From: Ruminococcus sp.
Lineage (GTDB): Bacteria; Bacillota; Clostridia; Oscillospirales; Ruminococcaceae
Direction of reading: 5' to 3'
Length of the DNA: 64,000 nucleotides
Assembly: GCA_029060305.1 (NCBI GenBank)
Contig: JAIDUG010000054.1
Location: 38,612-102,611, forward strand
Notes under the pieces: model-generated
Databases searched by the model: none
What the model saw: only the letters and a program-made list of their open reading frames with translations
What the model was told of the DNA's origin: nothing
Shown: positions 34,576-44,300 of the stretch, in pieces
How the letters are laid out: each line of letters begins with the position of its first letter
How positions within the stretch are numbered: the first letter of the stretch is position 1
Made by a program: the position numbers and the translations under genes

Positions 34576-34647
34576 GTAACTATTGATAATTTCCGGACAA
34601 TATGTTATTATAGAGATATGATTTTTTTAAAAAAGGAGATTTTTAAA

Positions 34648-36576
34648 ATGCTTGTATCTTTAAACAATATCAGTAAATTCTATAACGGTAATCAGTTGCT
34701 GAATAATATTTCCCTGTCTGTTGACGAAAACGATAAAATAGGACTTGTCGGGAATAACGGTTGCGGAAAGTCCACACTTCTTAAAATAATAACAGGTTCG
34801 GTAGAGCCGGACAGGTTTACGGAAAAAGACGGTATAATTTCTTTTGCTTCAAAGACGACTATAGGTTATCTGGAGCAGATGGGCGGACTTGATTCTGAAA
34901 AAACCGTTATGTCGGAAATGCAGGGCGTTTTTGACGGTATGCACAAGGCTATTGAACGACTTAGAGAGATAGAAATAGAAATCGAAATGGGAGATAATTC
35001 TTCCGCTGACGAATATCAGCAGTTGTCGTCGTGGGTCGAGGCAAATGACGGTTACAATACTGACGTTAAGATAAGAACTATTCTGAATGGTATGGGATTC
35101 TCTGAAAACGAATTGAACCGTACTGTATCTGGATTCAGCGGTGGCGAAAAAACACGTCTCTGTATTGCGAAACTTCTTCTTGAAGCACCTAATCTTCTTA
35201 TTCTTGACGAACCTACAAACCACCTTGATTTCAAGACTATAATGTGGCTGGAAGATTATCTGCGTTCATATAAAGGTGCTGTCCTGATAGTATCTCACGA
35301 CAGATATTTTCTTGACAGATTGTGTACATCTATTTGTGAGATAGAGAGAGGTACTCTCACCCGTTACAAAGGTAACTATTCGGCGTTTGTGCGACAGCGT
35401 GAGGAAAACGATACACGACGTTTGAAAGAATACGAAATGCAACAGAAACAGATTGCAAAACTGGAGGACTATGTTGCAAAGAACCTTGTCCGTGCATCTA
35501 CAACAAAAATGGCACAGAGCAAAAGAAAACAGCTTGAAAAAATGGATATAATTGAAAAACCTTTCCACGATATGAAAACGGCGAAAATTCATTTTACATA
35601 CGCCGTTGAACCGCCTATAGATGTGCTGAAAGTAAAGGGAGTTGATATTTCAGTAGGCGAGGGAAATTCTCATAAAACGCTTGTTAATGAAATAAATTTT
35701 GAAGTCCGCAGGGGCGAAAAAGTCGGAATAATCGGCGATAACGGCATAGGAAAGTCCACACTTCTTAAAATCATTCAGGAAAAAATGTCACACAAAGGTA
35801 TAGTGCGTTGGAACAGCAATATAAAGATATCGTACTTTGAGCAGGAAAGCACCAACCTTAACCGTGAGCTTACTGTTATGGAAGAAATACATAGTCGTTA
35901 TCCGTCAATGTCAGATTTGGAAGTCCGCAGTCTGCTTGCACAGGTGAGACTGACCGGCGAAAACGTTTTCAAGGAAACCGGAGTTATAAGCGGTGGTGAA
36001 CGTGCTAAATTATGTTTTGCGATAATGATGCAGGAACACGGAAATGTGCTGATTCTTGACGAACCTACAAACCACCTTGACTTATCGTCAAAAGAAGCTA
36101 TTGAGGAAGCACTTGCAGAGTATACAGGAACAGTCATATTTGTATCACACGACCGTTATTTATTGAGTAAGATAGCCGACCGTCTTATTGAACTCACTGA
36201 CGGAAATTATCGTCTGCATAACTATGGTTTTGAAAAATACCTTGACGTGCTGAGGGACGAGCAGGCTGAACAAAAAAGAATTGCAGATGCTGAAAAGTTT
36301 GCACGCAACGCAGAAGTCGCAAAGGAAAAAGCTGTCAGGACTTACCGCAACAAGCAACAGAGAAGTGCGGACGCTTTACGCAAAAACGAAATGAAACGTC
36401 TTGAAAAGGAAATCGACGATTTACAGGCGGAAATAGATTCTCTTACTGAGGAAATCTCAAAAGAAGAGGTTTACAGCAACTACTCACTTATGAATGAAAA
36501 ATGTACACGCATTGAGGAACTCAAACAGCAGATAGAAGAAAATTTTGAAAAACTGATTGAACTTGAAGAACAATGA
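34648..36576 (+). CDS. ABC-F family ATPase with C-terminal coiled coil
   Basis: Two Walker A motifs (GNNGCGKST, GDNGIGKST), SGGEK/SGGER signatures, LDEPTNHLD twice, no TM; start moved to ATG 34648 (AAGGAG RBS). Confidence 0.92.
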   Translation: MLVSLNNISKFYNGNQLLNNISLSVDENDKIGLVGNNGCGKSTLLKIITGSVEPDRFTEKDGIISFASKTTIGYLEQMGGLDSEKTVMSEMQGVFDGMHKAIERLREIEIEIEMGDNSSADEYQQLSSWVEANDGYNTDVKIRTILNGMGFSENELNRTVSGFSGGEKTRLCIAKLLLEAPNLLILDEPTNHLDFKTIMWLEDYLRSYKGAVLIVSHDRYFLDRLCTSICEIERGTLTRYKGNYSAFVRQREENDTRRLKEYEMQQKQIAKLEDYVAKNLVRASTTKMAQSKRKQLEKMDIIEKPFHDMKTAKIHFTYAVEPPIDVLKVKGVDISVGEGNSHKTLVNEINFEVRRGEKVGIIGDNGIGKSTLLKIIQEKMSHKGIVRWNSNIKISYFEQESTNLNRELTVMEEIHSRYPSMSDLEVRSLLAQVRLTGENVFKETGVISGGERAKLCFAIMMQEHGNVLILDEPTNHLDLSSKEAIEEALAEYTGTVIFVSHDRYLLSKIADRLIELTDGNYRLHNYGFEKYLDVLRDEQAEQKRIADAEKFARNAEVAKEKAVRTYRNKQQRSADALRKNEMKRLEKEIDDLQAEIDSLTEEISKEEVYSNYSLMNEKCTRIEELKQQIEENFEKLIELEEQ

Positions 36577-36637
36577 TAATTTTTTACAAAATATCACACT
36601 GGCTATTGTCGAAAATCAACAAAGTTTAAAATTTATA

Positions 36638-36666
36638 TTGAAAAATGTATTTTTGTATGGTATAAT
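36638..36666 (+). promoter_or_regulatory. Sigma-A promoter of the SCIFF operon
   Basis: TTGAAA-17-TATAAT with TGn. Confidence 0.8.
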
Positions 36667-36722
36667 GTTACTTAACGTTTACGGTGCAAGCCGTATAAAA
36701 AAATTAATGGAGGTTTATACTT

Positions 36723-36860
36723 ATGAAACACATTCAGACAATCAACAAGGCTAACCTTAAGGAGTCTGCTAAGAAGGGCGGTTGTGGCAAGTGTCAGGCT
36801 TCATGCCAGTCTGCTTGCAAGACTTCATGTACAGTCGCTAACCAGAAGTGCGAAAGATAA
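36723..36860 (+). CDS. scfA: SCIFF (six-cysteine-in-forty-five) ranthipeptide precursor
   Basis: Missed by the ORF track. GGAGG RBS; exactly 45 aa: MKHIQTINKANLKESAKKGGCGKCQASCQSACKTSCTVANQKCER, six Cys. Confidence 0.97.
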   Translation: MKHIQTINKANLKESAKKGGCGKCQASCQSACKTSCTVANQKCER

Positions 36861-36876
36861 GACTTGCATTTCACCT

Positions 36877-36913
36877 GAGGCAGTGTTTGTAAAAAAATAC
36901 TGCCTCTGTTTTT
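36877..36913 (+). terminator. Stem-loop/terminator after scfA
   Basis: GAGGCAGTGTTT-gtaaaa-AAATACTGCCTC-TGTTTTT. Confidence 0.75.
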
Positions 36914-36930
36914 AGTTATGAGGTGATAGT

Positions 36931-38511
36931 ATGGTTTTTAACTGCAAAATGTGCGGAGCTAATCTCAACGTAAAGTCCGGTATGCGTATATGTAAGTGTG
37001 ATTACTGCGATTCCGTGCAGACTATTCCCGACCTGAGCAGTGAAAAGAAACTGAAACTTTTCAATAAAGCCAATGCTTTGCGATTTGCTTGTGATTTCGA
37101 CAGGGCAGGGGACGTTTACAGGGATATTGTTACAGATTTTCCCGAAGAAGCTGAGGCTTACTGGGGGCTTTGCCTTTGTAAGTACGGTATAGAGTACGTT
37201 GTAGACCCCGAAACTCAGAACAGAGTTCCGACTTGTCACCGTACGTCTTTTGAAAAGATTCACGATATACCAGAGTTCAGGAAAGTCCTTGAATATTCCG
37301 ACGTAAATTTAAGAAATATTTATATACAGCTTGCTGAAGTGATTGACAACATTCAGCAGAGGATTCTTGCGATTGCAGTGAACGAAAAGCCGTTTGATGT
37401 TTTCATATGTTACAAGGAGACTGACGAAAACGGTAACCGTTCAGCAGATGCACTTCTTGCTGAAAAACTCTACTCAGAACTTACACGACAGAATATAAAA
37501 GTATTTTTTGCACCGGTAACTCTCAAAGGAAAGTTAGGTACTGAGTTTGAACCTTACATATATTCGGCGATAAACTCCGCACAGATTATGGTATGTGTGG
37601 GAACTTCTCAGGAACATTTCGATTCCGTATGGGTAAGAAACGAATGGAGCAGGTTTATTGAACTCATGAAGAAAGACAAGGCAAAAATACTTATTCCGTG
37701 TTATTCTGAGATGTCGGTAAGTCAGTTGCCGGTTGACTTCAGAGGATTTCAGGCACAGGATTTGGCGGAAACAGATTCTTTTGAAAATATTGTGAAAAAC
37801 GTTCAGGACATTATGAAAGCAAGCGAGGGGGCAAAGTCACAACTCAATATTCTTATGGAGCAGTTTGAGGGACAATTAAAAAATGAACGTTCAAAGTTGC
37901 GTATGCTTGAAAATATACATCATCAGCAGATGGTTTACGAAAAGAAGAACGCTAAAGAGATGTTTAAAAAAGAATACTGGAATCCAGCATATATAGTAAT
38001 ACTTGACTTTTTTATTATGCTGATAACTGCGTGCATAACAATCGGTGGTGGTTTACCGGACGGCGTAATATTTGCAAGCGTGGCGGTGGCTATTATATTA
38101 CCGTTGGCGATTATATTTCCCTATGCCAATAAACGCAACAAAAAAGCACGTGAAAATCTTTCACGCCGTCTTGCATACGACGAAAACGCAAACGGTTTTG
38201 ATTATGGAAGTCAGGACAGTGAAATAGTTCAGCTTCGTGAAATAGCTATGAAAAATTACGAAAAACAACATTTTACAGCAAGAAAAACAATCGGTCTGTA
38301 TATTCTATGGAGTTGGTTTTCATTTCTTCCAAAAAGTTTCATTGAGGGAATATTAGGTAATGATTACTATAAAAATTCGTCTGTTTTTACAGCAATTTTC
38401 AATGTGATAATACCTGTTATCGCACTTGCTTTTATAATCAGGCGTAATGTAAAGCTGAAAAAAGAACTCAACGAAAAGTTAGAGGAGATAAACAAGAAAA
38501 ATAAAATATGA
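36931..38511 (+). CDS. Zn-ribbon + TPR-like + TIR-domain protein with ~4 C-terminal TM helices
   Basis: CKMCG...CDYCD; EAEAYWGL.LCKYG; TIR motifs PFDVFICYKETD, KVFFA..TL and SVWVRNEWSRF (Glu at 37642-37644); four hydrophobic segments after residue ~350; GAGGTGA RBS. Confidence 0.85.
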   Translation: MVFNCKMCGANLNVKSGMRICKCDYCDSVQTIPDLSSEKKLKLFNKANALRFACDFDRAGDVYRDIVTDFPEEAEAYWGLCLCKYGIEYVVDPETQNRVPTCHRTSFEKIHDIPEFRKVLEYSDVNLRNIYIQLAEVIDNIQQRILAIAVNEKPFDVFICYKETDENGNRSADALLAEKLYSELTRQNIKVFFAPVTLKGKLGTEFEPYIYSAINSAQIMVCVGTSQEHFDSVWVRNEWSRFIELMKKDKAKILIPCYSEMSVSQLPVDFRGFQAQDLAETDSFENIVKNVQDIMKASEGAKSQLNILMEQFEGQLKNERSKLRMLENIHHQQMVYEKKNAKEMFKKEYWNPAYIVILDFFIMLITACITIGGGLPDGVIFASVAVAIILPLAIIFPYANKRNKKARENLSRRLAYDENANGFDYGSQDSEIVQLREIAMKNYEKQHFTARKTIGLYILWSWFSFLPKSFIEGILGNDYYKNSSVFTAIFNVIIPVIALAFIIRRNVKLKKELNEKLEEINKKNKI

Positions 38512-38525
38512 AAGGAAAATTTAAA

Positions 38526-39896
38526 ATGATACATAAGTACAAATTAAACGGATTCAATATAGTTCTTGACGTGAACAGCGGAGGCGTACACATTGTTGAC
38601 GAGCTTACATATGACTTACTTGACAATGTTGAGCCTCCTTTTGCAGAAGAGTGTCCTGAAAAGGTACTCGGAAAACTCTCAAAGGTCTATGATGTAGAGG
38701 ACGTTAAAACTTGTTACAAGGAAATTGTTGAACTCTACAACGACAAGATACTTTTTTCTGATGACGACTATGAAAAATATGCACAGTATTCAGTAGCTTC
38801 ACCTGTAAAGGCAATGTGTCTTAATATCGCACACGACTGCAATCTGCGTTGTAAATACTGTTTCGCATCTACCGGAGATTTCGGTAAGGGCAGAAAATTA
38901 ATGTCCTTTGAGACAGGAAAACACGCTATTGACTTTCTGCTTGAAAAGTCCGGAGACCGTCAGAACCTTGAATTAGACTTTTTCGGCGGAGAGCCTTTAA
39001 TGAATTTCGACGTTGTAAAGCAGATTGTTACTTATGCACGTAGCCGTGAAAAAGAGTTCAACAAGAAATTCCGTTTCACAATCACTACAAACGGACTTCT
39101 TCTTGACGACGACAAAATAGACTTTATCAACAAGGAAATGTCAAATGTTGTACTTTCGATTGACGGAAGAAAAGAAGTTAATGACTATATGCGTGTACGT
39201 GTTGACGGAACGGGCTGTTATGACAAGATTCTCCCTGCTTTCAGGAAACTTGTTGACGGCAGAGGCGAAAAAGAGTACTATGTGCGAGGTACTTTCACAA
39301 ATCACAATCTTGACTTTGCTGAGGACGTTTTCGCACTTTATAACGCAGGTTTCGACCAGATTTCAATAGAGCCTGTTGTGGGGGATTCTGACGAATACGC
39401 TCTCACTGAAAAGGATTTGCCGAAAGTTTTCAACGAGTACGAAAGACTTGCGAAAAAAATCATCGAAAACGAAAAGAACGGTAAGAAATTCAATTTCTTC
39501 CATTTTATGATAGACCTTGACCAAGGACCTTGTGCTATAAAAAGATTGCGTGGTTGTGGTTGCGGAAACGACTATGTAGCTATTACTCCAGACGGAGATA
39601 TTTTCCCGTGTCACCAGTTTGTCGGAATTGATGAGTACAAAATGGGCAACATTGATGAGGGTACTTTCAATCAGGAAATGAAACAGGATTTTGCAAAAGC
39701 ACACGTTTATACAAAACCCGAATGTAAAAAGTGCTGGGCAAAGTTTTATTGTAGTGGCGGTTGTAACGCTAACAATTATCAGTATATGGGCGACATCAGA
39801 ACAGCACACAAACTTTCATGTCAGCTTGAAAAGAAGCGTCTTGAATGTGCAATCATGCTGAAAGCTATCCGAATTTTCGGCGAACAAGAACAGTAA
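38526..39896 (+). CDS. scfB: SCIFF radical SAM/SPASM thioether cross-link maturase
   Basis: MIHKYKLNG.NIVLDVNSG N-terminus (RRE-like), CNLRCKYC, FFGGEP, SPASM GCG.G...PC and CWAKFYCSGGC.AN; alternative start 38508 overlaps the TIR stop (ATGA). Confidence 0.95.
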   Translation: MIHKYKLNGFNIVLDVNSGGVHIVDELTYDLLDNVEPPFAEECPEKVLGKLSKVYDVEDVKTCYKEIVELYNDKILFSDDDYEKYAQYSVASPVKAMCLNIAHDCNLRCKYCFASTGDFGKGRKLMSFETGKHAIDFLLEKSGDRQNLELDFFGGEPLMNFDVVKQIVTYARSREKEFNKKFRFTITTNGLLLDDDKIDFINKEMSNVVLSIDGRKEVNDYMRVRVDGTGCYDKILPAFRKLVDGRGEKEYYVRGTFTNHNLDFAEDVFALYNAGFDQISIEPVVGDSDEYALTEKDLPKVFNEYERLAKKIIENEKNGKKFNFFHFMIDLDQGPCAIKRLRGCGCGNDYVAITPDGDIFPCHQFVGIDEYKMGNIDEGTFNQEMKQDFAKAHVYTKPECKKCWAKFYCSGGCNANNYQYMGDIRTAHKLSCQLEKKRLECAIMLKAIRIFGEQEQ

Positions 39897-40255
39897 TGAA
39901 ACGCAAAACACGTACAATAACAGTAAACGGTAAAAAATACGTATGGTGGTGGGGAGTATACTACGATTCAACTGAGTTGTATCTTTCACCGGAGGGTGAT
40001 AAAACTTCTGTAATAAGAGTGGACTTTACAGAAAAGTGTATTAATGGTAATTTTAATATGGGCGTTATTATCAGGAAAAACGGTACGGAAAAAACTGTAA
40101 AAATAATCGAGCCTGCAATGGCAGGATTACTTCTGCCGTACATACAGGAGCAGGCAATATTTATTCCACGCAAGAATATATTTATAGACGGTTGTGAACT
40201 TCTCAGAAAAATGGGTTATGAAGTTATCGGGATAAAGAAAGGTCTGTACTGGTGA
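39896..40255 (+). CDS. Hypothetical protein (119 aa), translationally coupled to scfB
   Basis: TAATG stop/start overlap at 39894-39898; no motif recognised. Confidence 0.7.
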   Translation: MKRKTRTITVNGKKYVWWWGVYYDSTELYLSPEGDKTSVIRVDFTEKCINGNFNMGVIIRKNGTEKTVKIIEPAMAGLLLPYIQEQAIFIPRKNIFIDGCELLRKMGYEVIGIKKGLYW

Positions 40256-40261
40256 TAATTA

Positions 40262-41302
40262 ATGAAAAAAATGACAGTGGGTTTTATTACTGTATTGACT
40301 GCCTTAATTGTAGCGGTCTGTATGCATATTAAACACGAAGAAACACGCATACACAATGCAAAAATTGAACTCGGCAAGAAAAATGCTTGCGAATATATGA
40401 AACAAAAGTATGGAATAGAGGTTGAAGTTGTCAAAGTATCGGTTATAGAAGAAGATGATATATTCAGTAGTTGGGAAGGCGATGACGTATGGGTGACTGT
40501 CAGCGAAAACGACAAGGAATATAATGTTAAAATAAGCGGTGTTGAAGAAAATGCCGACGGTTTAGACGACTATCAGGCGGAAGAAATTGAAAAAGCCCTT
40601 ATTGATATGATAAAAGCCGATATGCCGACAGATTTTGAATATCATTTCTCTACGGACACAATGCGTAAATCACGTTATAAAGCCGGTAGTAAATCAAGTC
40701 TTGCGGAAATGCTTGACGGCAGAGATATTCTTGATATTTATTGCGTTAATACAGATTTGGAGGAATTACCTGTTTTTGAATTTTTAAGACGTAATATTAC
40801 CGATTGTACATTTTATTCTTTTTCGTCGCAGGAAATACTTGACGATTTCATGAAAGAAGAATATTATGATATTGAATATTATGCACCATTTATTATAAAT
40901 TATCGTGTACTAAAATTCAGAGAACGTGACAACGAATGCAGGGAATATAATCTGAAAAATTACGGTGAATTATTGTACTATGTACCACACGAAAAAGTCG
41001 ATGGTGAAATGAAAAAAGGTTTTTATGAAATTCCTGAATCCGAAATCGACTGGATAGACAGTGAATATGAAATAGTTTCAAAGGCATACGGTATTGACGA
41101 AAAAACTTCAAGAATACTTGTATGGTTTCCGATTCCCGAGGACAAAAAAGACAAGGATTTTTATTTGGCATATAGTTACTACCATGAATATGACAAAAAA
41201 ACAGTTCGGAAAACAGAAAAATGTCATATAGTCGGAAATTATGCGGTCAAGACTTTATATTCTCCTATTGCAGATATGAAAATAGCATTTCTGAGTAAAT
41301 AA
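40262..41302 (+). CDS. Hypothetical membrane-anchored extracellular protein (346 aa)
   Basis: N-terminal MKK + hydrophobic helix, acidic Tyr-rich body; starts 6 nt after the previous stop. Confidence 0.72.
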   Translation: MKKMTVGFITVLTALIVAVCMHIKHEETRIHNAKIELGKKNACEYMKQKYGIEVEVVKVSVIEEDDIFSSWEGDDVWVTVSENDKEYNVKISGVEENADGLDDYQAEEIEKALIDMIKADMPTDFEYHFSTDTMRKSRYKAGSKSSLAEMLDGRDILDIYCVNTDLEELPVFEFLRRNITDCTFYSFSSQEILDDFMKEEYYDIEYYAPFIINYRVLKFRERDNECREYNLKNYGELLYYVPHEKVDGEMKKGFYEIPESEIDWIDSEYEIVSKAYGIDEKTSRILVWFPIPEDKKDKDFYLAYSYYHEYDKKTVRKTEKCHIVGNYAVKTLYSPIADMKIAFLSK

Positions 41303-41346
41303 AAAAAGTCCGGAAGTAAATATCTTCCGGACTTATATTTTATATT
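41301..41346. terminator. Bidirectional terminator between the SCIFF operon and rpoC
   Basis: AAGTCCGGAAG-taaatat-CTTCCGGACTT flanked by A- and T-rich runs. Confidence 0.85.
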
Positions 41347-41348
41347 TT

Positions 41349-44300
41349 TCAGACTATCGGATTAATCGGAGTTGTGTTATGTTCAACGTATGATTCGTTT
41401 TTAACAACCTTTACGTGACTATAACAGTCCATACCAGTACCGGCAGGAATAAGTTTACCGATAATAACGTTTTCTTTGAGACCGAGAAGTCTGTCGCTTT
41501 TTCCTCTGATAGCAGCGTCTGTGAGAGCCTTTGTTGTTTCCTGGAATGATGCGGCTGCCATAAAGCTGTCGGAGTTGGAAGAAGCCTTTGTGATACCCTG
41601 AAGTACGGGACTTGTCTGAACAAGCTGGAGGTCATATTCACCTGCATCGATACGAGCCTGAATTTCACTGTTGATAATTTCGATTTCTTTTCTGTCAATG
41701 AAATTGCCGGGCAGGAGATAACTGCTTCCTGTTTCCTCAACCTTGATTTTGCGGAGCATTTGTCTTACGATAACTTCAATATGTTTGTCGTTGATGTCAA
41801 CACCCTGCAAACGATAAACTTTCTGTACTTCTTCGATAATGTAGTTCTGTACAGCCTGAGTGCCGAGTATATTAAGAATATCGGTCGGGTAACTGTTACC
41901 TTCGGTAAGACGAGTACCTTTTTCAATCTTGTCACCCTCAGAAACTCTTACTTTGAGATTGTAAGGAATCATATAGTTTTCAGTTTCGCCTGTTTCGGAG
42001 TTGGTGACGATAATATTCTGAGTTGTTTTTATTTCTTCAATGTGGATTGTACCGGAAATTCTTGAAAGGATAGCCGCACCCTTAGGACGTCTGCTTTCAA
42101 AAAGTTCTTCAACACGTGGGAGACCCTGTGTAATATCTTCAGCGTCAGCGGAAGCAACACCACCGGTATGGAAAGTTCTCATAGTAAGCTGTGTACCAGG
42201 TTCACCAATTGACTGAGCGGCGATAACACCTACAGCTTCACCGACTGCAACAATATTATTATTTGCGAGGTTAGCACCATAGCACTTAGCACAAACACCT
42301 GTTCTTGCTCTGCATTCGAGAACGGAGCGAATTTTGATTTTTTCAACACCAGCATCAATAATTTTGTTTGCGTCAGCATCTGTGATAAGTTTATTGCGTG
42401 AAACGATAAGTTCGCCGGATTCGTCCCTGAGGTCTTCCGAAAGGTATCTGCCTACAAGACGTTCTGCAAAAGGTTCAACTATTTCGTTTCCGTTTCTGAT
42501 TTCGTAAACTTCTATACCCTCAGTAGTTCCGCAGTCTTCCTCACGGATAATAACGTCCTGTGAAACGTCAACGAGACGACGTGTAAGATAACCTGAGTCA
42601 GCGGTTCGGAGAGCCGTATCAGCAAGACCTTTTCTTGCACCTCTCGAAGCTATGAAGTATTCGAGGATATTAAGACCCTCACGGTAATTTGCACGGATAG
42701 GGATTTCAATAACCGTACCGGAAGTATTAGCGATAAGTCCACGCATTCCGGCAAGCTGACGAATCTGTGAAATAGAACCTCTCGCACCTGAGTCAGCCAT
42801 CATCCATATAGGATTGTAGCGGTCAAAATTCTCTTTAAGTTTCTTTGTAACTTCGTCAGTCGTGTTAGTCCAGAGTGAGATAATTTTCTTTGTTTTTTCC
42901 TGAGCCGAAATATAACCGTACTCATATTCACTGGTAATCTGTTCAACTTCTGCATCAGCGTTTGCGAGTATGGCTTTCTTTTCAGGAGGAATTGAAGCGT
43001 CACATACTGCAACGGTAAGTGCTGCCCTTGTTGAATACTTGTAACCAAGAGACTTTATTCTGTCGAGAACTTCAGAAGTTGTTGTTGTGCCGTGAATTTT
43101 TATACAACGTTCAATAATATCGGAAAGCTGTTTCTTGCCGACAAGGAACGCAATTTCAAGGTCAAACTGTTTGTCGGAATTTGTTCTGTCAACATATCCG
43201 AGATTCTGCGGAATATTTTCATTGAAGATAAGTCTTCCGACAGTAGCGTCGATAATTTTTGAAACTTTCTTGTCGCCGATGTCCTTTGTGATTTTAACCT
43301 TGATATTTGCGTGAAGTGATACGTCGTGTTCATTGTAAGCCATGAGGGCTTCGTTGACATCACGGAATACTTTTCCCTCACCAATGTCACCAGGTTTATC
43401 CATAGTAAGATAGTATGAGCCAAGCACCATATCCTGTGACGGTACAGCAACTGGTTTACCGTCCGAGGGCTTGAGGAGGTTATTTGCGGCGAGCATGAGG
43501 AAACGTGCCTCTGCCTGAGCCTCTGCGGATAATGGAAGATGTACAGCCATCTGGTCGCCGTCAAAGTCGGCATTAAATGCGGAACATACAAGGGGGTGGA
43601 GTTTTATTGCACGACCCTCAACGAGAATCGGTTCAAAAGCCTGAATGCCGAGACGGTGAAGTGTAGGCGCACGGTTAAGCATAACTGGGTGGTCTTTGAT
43701 TACATCTTCAAGAGCGTCCCATACTTTGTTGTCAGCACGGTCAATGAGTTTTCTTGCACTCTTTATATTTGCTATTGCTTTTTTGTCAACAAGTCTTTTC
43801 AGTACAAACGGTTTGAAGAGTTCGAGAGCCATTTCTTTAGGAAGTCCGCACTGATACATTTTAAGCTCAGGACCTACAACGATAACAGAACGTCCGGAGT
43901 AGTCAACACGTTTACCGAGAAGATTCTGACGGAAACGTCCCTGTTTACCTTTAAGCATATCGGAAAGTGACTTCAAAGCCCTGTTGTTAGGACCTGTAAC
44001 AGGTCTGCCGTGTCTGCCGTTGTCAATAAGAGCGTCAACAGCTTCCTGTAACATTCTTTTTTCGTTTCTTACAATGATGTCGGGAGCATCGAGTTCAAGC
44101 ATTCTTTTGAGACGGTTATTTCTGTTTATAACACGTCTGTAGAGATCGTTAAGGTCGGAAGTCGCATAACGTCCGCCGTCAAGCATAATCATCGGGCGGA
44201 GGTCGGGCGGAATTACCGGAACAGCATCAAGAATCATCCACTCCGGCTTGTTTCCGGAAAGACGGAAAGCCTCAATAATCTGAAGTCTTTTAAGAATCTT

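What the first reader, a model, noticed from the sequence alone, without database searches (positions are those of the whole stretch)
36723..39896. TIR-domain membrane protein embedded inside the SCIFF ranthipeptide operon, between precursor and maturase
Seen: promoter > scfA > stem-loop > Zn-ribbon/TPR/TIR/4-TM gene > scfB. The TIR stop overlaps or abuts the scfB start (ATGA at 38508-38511), so scfB cannot be transcribed without it, and no internal promoter is evident. The TIR keeps the catalytic-type Glu (WVRNEW). Established: scfA and scfB are normally adjacent; ranthipeptides have been linked to quorum-sensing-like signalling in clostridia; bacterial TIR domains are oligomerisation-activated NAD+ hydrolases or cyclic-ADPR signal generators in immunity. 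Inference: a peptide-gated, Toll-like receptor in which the cross-linked peptide (or its absence) is sensed through the TM or TPR part and triggers NAD+ cleavage, linking a RiPP signal to abortive infection, dormancy or population control. I know of no description of this pairing. The simpler alternative is a neutral insertion into an expression hot-spot.
Basis: partly seen in the sequence, partly recalled or inferred. Interest (0 to 1): 0.88.

Follow-up and report, generated by a model that had tools for sequence, protein, structure and literature searches.

The report
TIR membrane gene lodged inside SCIFF operon
A gut Ruminococcus carries a membrane-anchored TIR (immune-type NAD-cleaving) gene wedged between the SCIFF peptide gene and its maturase; the arrangement is old, conserved in about a fifth of related species and not described before, but it looks more like a captured mobile conflict gene riding on the operon than a peptide-gated receptor.

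Summary
The order is promoter, scfA, terminator-like hairpin, a 526-aa Zn-ribbon/helical/TIR/coiled-coil/about-4-TM gene, then scfB. The true scfB start is 38526, 14 nt after the TIR stop, not the ATGA overlap.

The arrangement is not strain-specific. All 8 orthologues looked up (43-72% identity) and 16 of 80 Ruminococcus species representatives have it, in at least 6 flanking contexts. The TIR and ScfB trees are largely congruent, so it looks like one old capture followed by losses. The cytoplasmic domains are under strong purifying selection (dN/dS 0.06-0.08). The catalytic-type Glu238 is invariant and the fold matches NADase TIRs.

Peptide gating has no support:
- The ScfA core is identical with and without the TIR.
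- The TM part evolves fast (dN/dS 0.42) and has only 4-12-residue outer loops.
- The N-module+TIR belongs to a family of more than 6,900 proteins; the three members sampled lie in tandem arrays on mobile elements without SCIFF.
- A second, unrelated 277-aa gene occupies the same slot in other Ruminococcus lineages.

Best reading: a captured conflict-type TIR effector, expressed by read-through of the scfA terminator. The enzyme activity, the trigger and any SCIFF link are untested.

The parts
36638..36666 (+). Sigma-70-type promoter of the scf operon (TTGAAA, 17 nt spacer, extended -10 TG-TATAAT)
   Evidence: 11 of 12 matches, the best site in 36400-41400. This is a consensus match only; the transcription start is not mapped.
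36723..36860 (+). scfA, the 45-aa six-cysteine SCIFF ranthipeptide precursor
   Evidence: PF13165 E=1.9e-24; TIGR03973 82 bits (cutoff 50). The core GGCGKCQASCQSACKTSCTVANQKCER is essentially invariant across the Ruminococcus loci compared, bar rare single substitutions (K23N in 3 loci, R45K in 2), with or without the TIR.
36877..36914 (+). Terminator-like hairpin plus T-run (inferred leaky terminator/attenuator) directly after scfA
   Evidence: A hairpin plus T-run lies after scfA in 84 of 85 loci, TIR+ and TIR- alike, with compensatory stem variants (GAGGCAGT/ACTGCCTC, GAGGCGGT/ACCGCCTC, GGAGCAGG/CCTGCTC). In TIR- relatives scfB lies 20-40 nt behind it, so scfB expression needs read-through.
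36931..38511 (+). 526-aa Zn-ribbon / helical / TIR / coiled-coil / TM protein gene
   Evidence: AF2 mean pLDDT is 86.6. Orthologues are 43-90% identical and are found only in this slot.
36931..37380 (+). N-module (aa 1-150): four-Cys zinc ribbon (aa 1-32), TPR-like helices (38-85), beta-hairpin with invariant PTCHR (87-104), helices 114-149
   Evidence: Invariant residues include C8, C23, C26, W78, P100-R104. dN/dS is 0.057. No Pfam hit. It is shared by more than 6,900 proteins.
37393..37770 (+). TIR domain (aa 155-280); the catalytic-type Glu238 codon is at 37642-37644
   Evidence: PF13676 48 bits. Foldseek matches: AbTir-3AD 7uxu (TM-score 0.78), L7 TIR, MyD88, SPARTA. WVRNEW aligns with the W-C-L-M-E of flax L6 and AtTIR. 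E238 is invariant in 58 sequences. dN/dS is 0.083.
37777..37974 (+). Long helix / probable coiled-coil stalk (aa 283-348)
   Evidence: one helix at 283-339, then 341-348. dN/dS is 0.065.
37984..38439 (+). Two TM hairpins (about aa 353-371, 378-396, about 450-468, 485-503), each followed by a basic NKKA...L..RL motif; the 50-aa loop between them is cytoplasmic
   Evidence: Outer loops are about 4-12 residues. dN/dS is 0.42. Apart from members and fragments of this same subfamily there are no homologues among 1.84 billion representatives (5 hits). Some orthologues have three hairpin units (P0039, P0044).
38526..39896 (+). scfB, the radical SAM/SPASM SCIFF maturase
   Evidence: TIGR03974 721 bits (cutoff 425), with the model starting at residue 8 of the 38508 ORF. 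The MIHKYK start is conserved in all loci. dN/dS is 0.031.

Best explanation
The middle gene encodes a membrane-anchored TIR protein that looks catalytically competent. It belongs to a very large, uncharacterised Clostridial family: a Zn-ribbon/TPR-like N-module plus TIR, followed by a variable C-terminus. The other members sampled lie in tandem arrays on mobile elements.

One copy, with a C-terminus of two TM hairpins, was captured long ago in the Ruminococcus flavefaciens group. It landed exactly between the leaky terminator behind scfA and the scfB ribosome-binding site. Since then it has co-diverged with scfB and has been lost in most lineages.

It has no evident promoter of its own. It is transcribed, together with scfB, by the fraction of PscfA transcripts that read through the hairpin. 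That gives low, steady expression.

Most likely role (inferred, not shown): a conflict or abortive-infection-type effector that cleaves NAD+, or makes an NAD-derived signal, when it oligomerises at the membrane. The trigger is unknown.

The link to SCIFF is most likely positional and regulatory. The gene gains expression by hitch-hiking and a protected location between two highly conserved genes. A ligand-receptor relationship is unlikely.
For: Shown:
- The domain anatomy and the TIR fold, with an invariant catalytic-type Glu.
- Strong purifying selection on the N-module, TIR and stalk (dN/dS 0.057, 0.083 and 0.065), against 0.42 for the TM part and 0.031 for scfB.
- The arrangement in 8 of 8 orthologues and 16 of 80 species representatives, in at least 6 flanking contexts.
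- TIR and ScfB distances correlate (Spearman 0.86) and their trees have matching major groups.
- TIR+ lineages are interspersed with TIR- lineages in the ScfB tree.
- Frameshifted or truncated alleles occur in L018, L019 and L004.
- The hairpin is conserved in 84 of 85 loci, and TIR- relatives have no room for an scfB promoter.
- The TIR stop lies -11 to +25 nt from the scfB start in most species.
- Contigs of RNA-seq libraries span scfA>TIR (36767-36954 in the metatranscriptome X7; 36801-37015 in X9) and, in X7 from a related strain, TIR>scfB (38454-38666).
- Paralogues lie in arrays with a Band_7_1 protein, next to resolvase, relaxase/MobC, Phd/Fic, PycTM and nSTAND6 genes.
- A second, unrelated cargo (277 aa) occupies the same slot in 1 of 80 and 6 of 117 loci, and a distant relative of it sits beside a phage-type integrase and a lysozyme gene, outside the slot.
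- ScfA is identical and ScfB shows no TIR-specific signature.
Against: - No enzymatic, toxicity or phage data exist.
- Full-length, the protein hits no PADLOC model. The N-module+TIR part alone gives only a weak PDC-S66 hit (E=2e-4).
- The neighbouring genes here are housekeeping genes (ABC-F, rpoC), not a defence island.
- This TIR subfamily was found only in the scf slot. It has stayed there, tightly coupled to scfB, over a divergence at which the flanks have rearranged. That is also what a true functional partnership would produce.
- Capture of the gene and 'trapping' between two co-dependent genes is an inference.
- The ScfB NJ tree has low resolution, so the number of losses, as opposed to recombinational transfers, is uncertain.
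- The RNA-seq contigs could contain DNA carry-over.
Confidence: 0.55

Rival explanations
1. SCIFF-coupled TIR signalling. Mature or immature ScfA, or ScfB activity, controls the TIR. For example, the abundant cross-linked peptide keeps the TIR off, and its loss triggers NAD+ cleavage. Alternatively, the peptide is sensed at the membrane and switches the TIR on.
For: - The subfamily sits exclusively and for a long time in the scf slot (27 loci).
- Spacing to scfB is tight, sometimes overlapping, which suggests translational coupling.
- The layout is shared promoter, abundant small peptide upstream, potentially toxic enzyme downstream.
- The literature links SCIFF to signalling and sporulation regulation (Chen et al. 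2020, as cited in PMC8102284).
- No paper describes the pairing.
Against: - ScfA is identical in TIR+ and TIR- species, and no ScfB residue tracks TIR presence across lineages.
- The TM part is the least constrained part, although the supposed ligand is invariant. It has only tiny outer loops.
- The conserved N-module is shared with thousands of paralogues, and the three whose loci were examined have no SCIFF nearby.
- In the survey of the 80 closest ScfB relatives, most species run SCIFF without the TIR (62 of 78 informative loci).
- A different gene can occupy the slot.
Confidence: 0.13
2. A non-enzymatic membrane role serving SCIFF. The TIR acts only as an oligomerisation scaffold, and the protein tethers ScfB or ScfA to the membrane, for example for export or localisation of the peptide.
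For: - SCIFF operons have no known exporter or protease (established knowledge).
- The architecture of membrane anchor plus coiled-coil stalk suits a scaffold.
- Many animal TIRs with the same W-x-x-x-E motif are scaffolds rather than enzymes (MyD88 and TRIF are among the fold hits).
Against: - The invariant Glu238, W234, N237, W239 and R241 across 58 family members suggest a conserved active site.
- The nearest relatives are arrays on mobile elements.
- SCIFF is made in the majority of sister species without this protein.
Confidence: 0.08
3. A neutral or decaying insertion with no function of its own.
For: - Three of about 20 species-level alleles are frameshifted or truncated (L018, L019, L004).
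- The gene has been lost in most lineages.
- The slot tolerates other insertions.
Against: - dN/dS is 0.06-0.08 on three domains, with dS near saturation.
- The ORF is intact at 43% identity in at least 16 species.
- About 100 residues are invariant.
Confidence: 0.04

Closest known systems
SCIFF system (ScfA/ScfB; CteA/CteB of Clostridium thermocellum; TIGR03973/TIGR03974)
   Same: A six-Cys 45-aa precursor and a radical SAM/SPASM thioether maturase, both scoring well above the curated cut-offs, driven by one promoter with a hairpin behind the precursor gene.
   Different: The normally adjacent pair lies 65-216 nt apart in 62 of 80 relatives and 110 of 117 metagenome loci. Here it is split by a 1.6-kb TIR gene.
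Bacterial and plant NADase TIR domains (AbTir, Thoeris ThsB, SPARTA TIR-APAZ, TIR-SAVED, flax L6/L7)
   Same: The TIR fold (TM-score up to 0.78 to AbTir) and a W-x-x-x-E helix whose Glu aligns with the L6 and AtTIR catalytic Glu.
   Different: - No partner genes (ThsA, Ago, CD-NTase/SAVED).
- A unique Zn-ribbon/TPR-like N-module and a C-terminal 4-TM anchor.
- Sequence similarity is marginal (E 0.03-0.3).
- Activity is untested.
Uncharacterised Clostridial Zn-ribbon-TIR family with variable C-termini (TPR, RCC1/WD40_RLD, LRR, MORN, DUF6273), in tandem arrays with a Band_7_1 protein on mobile elements
   Same: The first ~300 residues are about 50% identical, with the same invariant motifs (CxxC, EAYWG, PTCHR, FICYK, WVxNEW).
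   Different: Those members are soluble, multi-copy and borne on mobile elements. This subfamily is single-copy, has a TM C-terminus and is found only in the scf slot.
Peptide-sensing membrane receptors of RiPP or quorum systems (AgrC, LanK-type kinases)
   Same: A membrane protein encoded in the same operon as a small modified peptide.
   Different: No kinase or other known transducer domain. Almost no extracellular surface. No co-variation with the peptide.
PADLOC candidate system PDC-S66
   Same: A weak match over the TIR region (E=2e-4, 18.8 bits).
   Different: The match covers the generic TIR part only, and the full-length protein gives no PADLOC hit.

Membership tests
SCIFF ranthipeptide system | A precursor of about 45 aa with six Cys that matches TIGR03973/PF13165 | tested here: met
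   82 bits against a cutoff of 50. Cys at positions 21, 24, 28, 32, 36 and 43.
SCIFF ranthipeptide system | A radical SAM/SPASM maturase that matches TIGR03974 above its cutoff and is not the 'not_ScfB' exception | tested here: met
   721 bits against a cutoff of 425. NF040492 scores 589, below its cutoff of 855.
SCIFF ranthipeptide system | Precursor and maturase genes directly adjacent | tested here: not met
   the two are 1.67 kb apart here, against 65-216 nt in 62 of 80 relatives.
TIR domain superfamily (PF13676 TIR_2) | A profile match above the gathering score and a flavodoxin-like TIR fold | tested here: met
   48.1 bits against a cutoff of 28; a confident model whose best PDB matches are nearly all TIR domains.
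NADase-type TIR enzymes | The catalytic Glu in the W-x-x-x-E helix | tested here: met
   the motif aligns with W-C-L-M-E of L6 and W-C-L-D-E of AtTIR; the Glu is invariant in 58 sequences.
NADase-type TIR enzymes | Oligomerisation-dependent NAD+ cleavage | not testable with these tools
   This needs an enzyme assay of wild type against E238A.
Thoeris / CBASS / SPARTA / Pycsar TIR systems | A cognate partner gene (ThsA, CD-NTase+SAVED, short Ago, cyclase) in the locus, or a match to the system's TIR model | tested here: not met
   no PADLOC system model is hit; the neighbours are ABC-F, scfA, scfB, two unknown ORFs and rpoC.
   the TM region has dN/dS 0.42, the outer loops are about 4-12 aa, and ScfA is invariant and identical in TIR- species.
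   No multimer prediction or assay is available here.

The most novel reading that the evidence does not exclude
The TIR-4TM protein is a genuine functional partner of SCIFF. The abundant, cross-linked ScfA peptide, or ScfB activity, gates a membrane TIR NADase. That would make the universally conserved but functionally obscure SCIFF system the input of a Toll-like death, dormancy or immunity switch in some Ruminococcus, and would give SCIFF its first defined cellular target.
Probability: 0.12. Interest if true: 0.85.

Novelty: new variant of a known kind. Interest (0 to 1): 0.45.

Why it matters
- SCIFF is one of the most widespread RiPP systems in Clostridia, and its function is still unclear. 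A conserved extra gene inside the operon is a rare handle on it, even if only by showing how the operon is expressed.
- The gene also flags a very large family (more than 6,900 clusters) of Zn-ribbon-TIR proteins in gut Clostridia. The family is unstudied, is absent from PADLOC, and the members sampled form arrays on mobile elements. It is a plausible new conflict or immunity system.
- The slot between a precursor's leaky terminator and its maturase appears to be a recurrent landing pad. At least two unrelated cargo families with mobile-element relatives use it. This matters for anyone annotating RiPP clusters or hunting defence genes outside classical islands.

Tried and rejected
- PADLOC on the full protein gave no hit, and NCBIfam gave none.
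- A sequence search of the PDB with the family profile gave only marginal hits. Foldseek against viral structures found nothing significant. Foldseek against the PDB matched only the TIR domain, so the N-module and the TM part remain without structural relatives.
- An exhaustive HMMER search with the C-terminal 237 aa found only the subfamily itself: 5 hits in 1.84 billion representatives.
- I looked for ScfA or ScfB residues that track TIR presence. Only clade-level phylogenetic signal appeared.
- I tested whether the downstream 119-aa and 346-aa ORFs are TIR partners. They occur only in the window's own clade and at variable distance, so I rejected them.
- A search for RNA runs holding the TIR gene listed none. 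Evidence for co-transcription rests on short contigs from two RNA-seq libraries, the metatranscriptome X7 and X9.
- The metagenome scan by scfA DNA pattern gave 0 TIR loci in 117, so it did not extend the TIR survey. It did reveal the second cargo.
- Literature searches for SCIFF plus 'TIR domain', and for the Zn-ribbon-TIR family, found nothing relevant.
- ScfA-TIR multimer modelling was not possible with the tools.
Full report
**1. Observation**

The window holds, on the + strand, the following elements.
- A strong sigma-70-type promoter at 36638-36666: TTGAAA, 17 nt, TG-TATAAT.
- scfA at 36723-36860: 45 aa with six Cys. PF13165 E=1.9e-24; TIGR03973 82 bits against a cutoff of 50.
- A 12-bp hairpin followed by a T-run at 36877-36914.
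- A 526-aa ORF at 36931-38511, with a TIR_2 domain at aa 157-285 (48 bits against a cutoff of 28).
- scfB, ending at 39896 (TIGR03974 721 bits against a cutoff of 425).

The start conserved in every relative is ATG 38526 (MIHKYKLNGF), preceded by GAAAGGA and lying 14 nt after the TIR stop. Upstream is an ABC-F gene. Downstream are two unknown ORFs and rpoC on the opposite strand.

**2. Anatomy of the middle protein**

AlphaFold2, run with a 58-sequence alignment, gives a confident model with mean pLDDT 86.6. Its parts are:
- a four-strand zinc ribbon (aa 1-32);
- three TPR-like helices (38-85);
- a beta-hairpin carrying the invariant PTCHR motif (87-104);
- two further helices (114-149);
- the TIR domain (155-280);
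- one very long helix (283-339);
- a helical membrane region.

Hydropathy and the positive-inside rule give two TM hairpins (353-371/378-396 and about 450-468/485-503). Both ends and the 50-residue middle loop lie in the cytoplasm, and the outer loops are only about 4-12 residues.

Foldseek against the PDB matches only the TIR domain. The hits include AbTir with 3AD (TM-score 0.78), flax L7, MyD88, and SPARTA and TIR-SAVED TIRs. WVRNEW aligns with the W-C-L-M-E of flax L6 and the W-C-L-D-E of AtTIR. By established knowledge that motif holds the catalytic Glu of plant TIR NADases. Glu238 is invariant in 58 family members, together with W234, N237, W239 and R241.

The protein hits no PADLOC or NCBIfam model. 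The N-module+TIR part alone gives a weak PDC-S66 match.

**3. Recurrence**

A protein search found more than 6,900 relatives. About 44 clusters are full-length orthologues (43-90% identity), all from Ruminococcus MAGs. The rest share only the first ~300 residues and carry other C-termini (TPR, RCC1, LRR, MORN, DUF6273).

All eight orthologues whose contigs I looked up (43-72% identity) sit between scfA and a radical SAM/SPASM gene. They do so in at least six different flanking contexts.

A scan of GTDB species representatives with ScfB returned the 80 closest Ruminococcus loci:

| Content of the scfA-scfB interval | Loci |
|---|---|
| TIR gene (interval about 1.66-1.70 kb) | 16 |
| scfA and scfB adjacent (65-216 nt apart) | 62 |
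| A different gene | 1 |
| Uninformative | 1 |

The cultured R. flavefaciens strains Y1, MA2007 and ATCC 19208 lack the TIR.

**4. History**

In a ScfB NJ tree, the TIR+ loci form one large clade, which contains the window, plus several scattered deep lineages. Among the TIR+ loci, the TIR and ScfB trees share the same major groups, and pairwise distances correlate with Spearman 0.86. This points to one old capture with co-inheritance and repeated loss. Replacement by recombination through the conserved flanks is an alternative to loss. The tree resolution is limited, so the number of events is uncertain.

Three alleles are frameshifted or truncated: L018, L019 and L004. These could be real decay or assembly errors.

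**5. Selection**

| Region | Pairwise NG86 dN/dS, within the large clade |
|---|---|
| N-module | 0.057 |
| TIR | 0.083 |
| Stalk | 0.065 |
| TM region | 0.42 |
| scfB | 0.031 |

The gene is therefore functional. Its cytoplasmic parts are tightly constrained. The membrane part keeps its topology but not its sequence.

The C-terminal module has no homologues outside the subfamily in 1.84 billion representative proteins.

**6. Expression logic**

A hairpin plus T-run follows scfA in 84 of 85 loci, with compensatory stem changes, whether or not the TIR is present. In TIR- relatives, scfB starts 20-40 nt behind the hairpin, so scfB is normally expressed by read-through of a leaky terminator. This is the usual way RiPP operons make more precursor than enzyme (established knowledge).

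The TIR gene sits exactly between the T-run and the scfB ribosome-binding site. In orthologues its stop lies -11 to +25 nt from the scfB start in most species.

Promoter-like hits inside the gene are no more frequent than chance.

Contigs from RNA-seq libraries cross both junctions. In the gut metatranscriptome X7, one spans 36767-36954 (scfA into the TIR gene, 5 mismatches) and, from a related strain, one spans 38454-38666 (TIR into scfB). A contig of a second library, X9, spans 36801-37015. This supports co-transcription, but DNA carry-over cannot be excluded.

**7. Evidence on a functional link to SCIFF**

- The ScfA core is invariant, and the most common full ScfA variant is shared by 12 TIR+ and 15 TIR- species.
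- No ScfB column separates TIR+ from TIR- lineages beyond clade signal.
- The part proposed to sense the peptide is the least constrained part and is barely exposed outside.
- The conserved N-module is shared with paralogues. The three examined lie in tandem arrays, together with a Band_7_1/Zn-ribbon protein and a 231-239-aa protein. These arrays lie next to resolvase, relaxase/MobC, Phd/Fic, PycTM and nSTAND6 genes. They have no SCIFF nearby and none of their proteins is in PADLOC.
- The same slot holds a second, unrelated cargo: a 277-aa protein with an HNH-like motif and a weak PcrA/UvrD tudor domain. It occurs in 1 of 80 species representatives and in 6 of 117 metagenome loci chosen by an scfA DNA pattern (41-100% identity). 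A distant relative of it sits beside a phage-type integrase and a lysozyme gene, outside the slot.
- One locus has a MITE-like inverted repeat in the spacer.

**8. Interpretation**

The best-supported reading is a captured, membrane-anchored member of a conflict-type TIR family associated with mobile elements. It is kept under selection and expressed at a low level by read-through from the scfA promoter.

Its likely action is NAD+ cleavage, or production of an NAD-derived signal, on oligomerisation. This is inferred from the fold, the catalytic Glu and the family context. It has not been shown.

Exclusive and long residence in the slot is the main point in favour of a true SCIFF partnership. 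It is equally expected for a gene trapped between two co-dependent, highly conserved genes. I put the SCIFF-gated model at about 0.12-0.13.

**9. Comparison and novelty**

scfA and scfB are bona fide SCIFF genes. The TIR is a member of the TIR superfamily with NADase-type hallmarks, but it does not belong to Thoeris, CBASS, SPARTA or Pycsar (see the membership table).

No paper in the searchable library pairs SCIFF with a TIR domain or describes the Zn-ribbon-TIR family. The reported link of SCIFF to quorum sensing and sporulation is Chen et al. 2020, as cited in PMC8102284. SCIFF ubiquity in rumen Clostridia is described in PMC13289728.

I rate this a new variant of a known kind, of moderate interest. 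The arrangement is real, old and undescribed, but the exciting mechanism is not supported by the comparative evidence.

Noticed in passing
L058:3644-4477 (also L102, L119, L120, L134, L144, L196): An unrelated 277-aa gene occupies the same scfA-hairpin-[X]-scfB slot in other Ruminococcus lineages. It has an HNH-like motif (LELHHIDEN...NVLEHLLLH) and a weak PcrA/UvrD tudor C-terminus. The copies are 41-100% identical. It belongs to a small family of 30 clusters, and a distant relative (P0142, L219) lies beside a phage-type integrase and a lysozyme gene, outside the slot.
   Followed up: partly
L094:6001-14225, L096:478-13725, L097:741-6954: Paralogues of the Zn-ribbon-TIR module with RCC1, TPR, LRR or DUF6273 C-termini form tandem arrays of 2-4 genes. 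The arrays include a Band_7_1/Zn-ribbon protein and a conserved 231-239-aa protein. They lie next to resolvase, relaxase/MobC, Phd/Fic, PycTM and nSTAND6 genes. No PADLOC system model matches; the only hit is a marginal CARF-like one (E=0.002) to the 239-aa protein. This may be an undescribed multi-gene conflict system.
   Followed up: partly
L032:4286-4500: The scfA-scfB spacer is enlarged to 216 nt by a long, near-perfect inverted repeat (about -66 kcal/mol). It looks like a MITE-type insertion in the same slot.
   Followed up: no
window 37996-38089: A co-occurring strain in gut metagenome run X2 has a contig that matches on both sides but carries 92 unalignable letters of equal length over the TM1-TM2 hairpin. 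This fits the hypervariability of the membrane part.
   Followed up: no
window 39896-40255 and 40262-41302: A 119-aa ORF starts on the scfB stop codon (TAATG) and is followed by a 346-aa ORF. Neither has a Pfam or NCBIfam hit. Both occur only in the window's own clade, at variable distance from scfB, so they are not TIR partners. A metatranscriptome contig skips 39896-40207, which suggests that some strains lack the 119-aa ORF.
   Followed up: partly
L018:2909-4481, L019:269-1841, L004:5001-6601: The TIR alleles of three species representatives are frameshifted or split (for example 458 aa plus 74 aa in L004, seen on 11 contigs). This is either real pseudogenisation or assembly error.
   Followed up: partly
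window 34639-36576: The gene upstream of the scf operon is an ABC-F ATPase that scores above the cutoff for the ribosomal-protection-like ABC-F family (NF000355, 436 bits against a cutoff of 380). It also lies upstream of the scf operon in at least four of the TIR+ orthologue loci examined.
   Followed up: no
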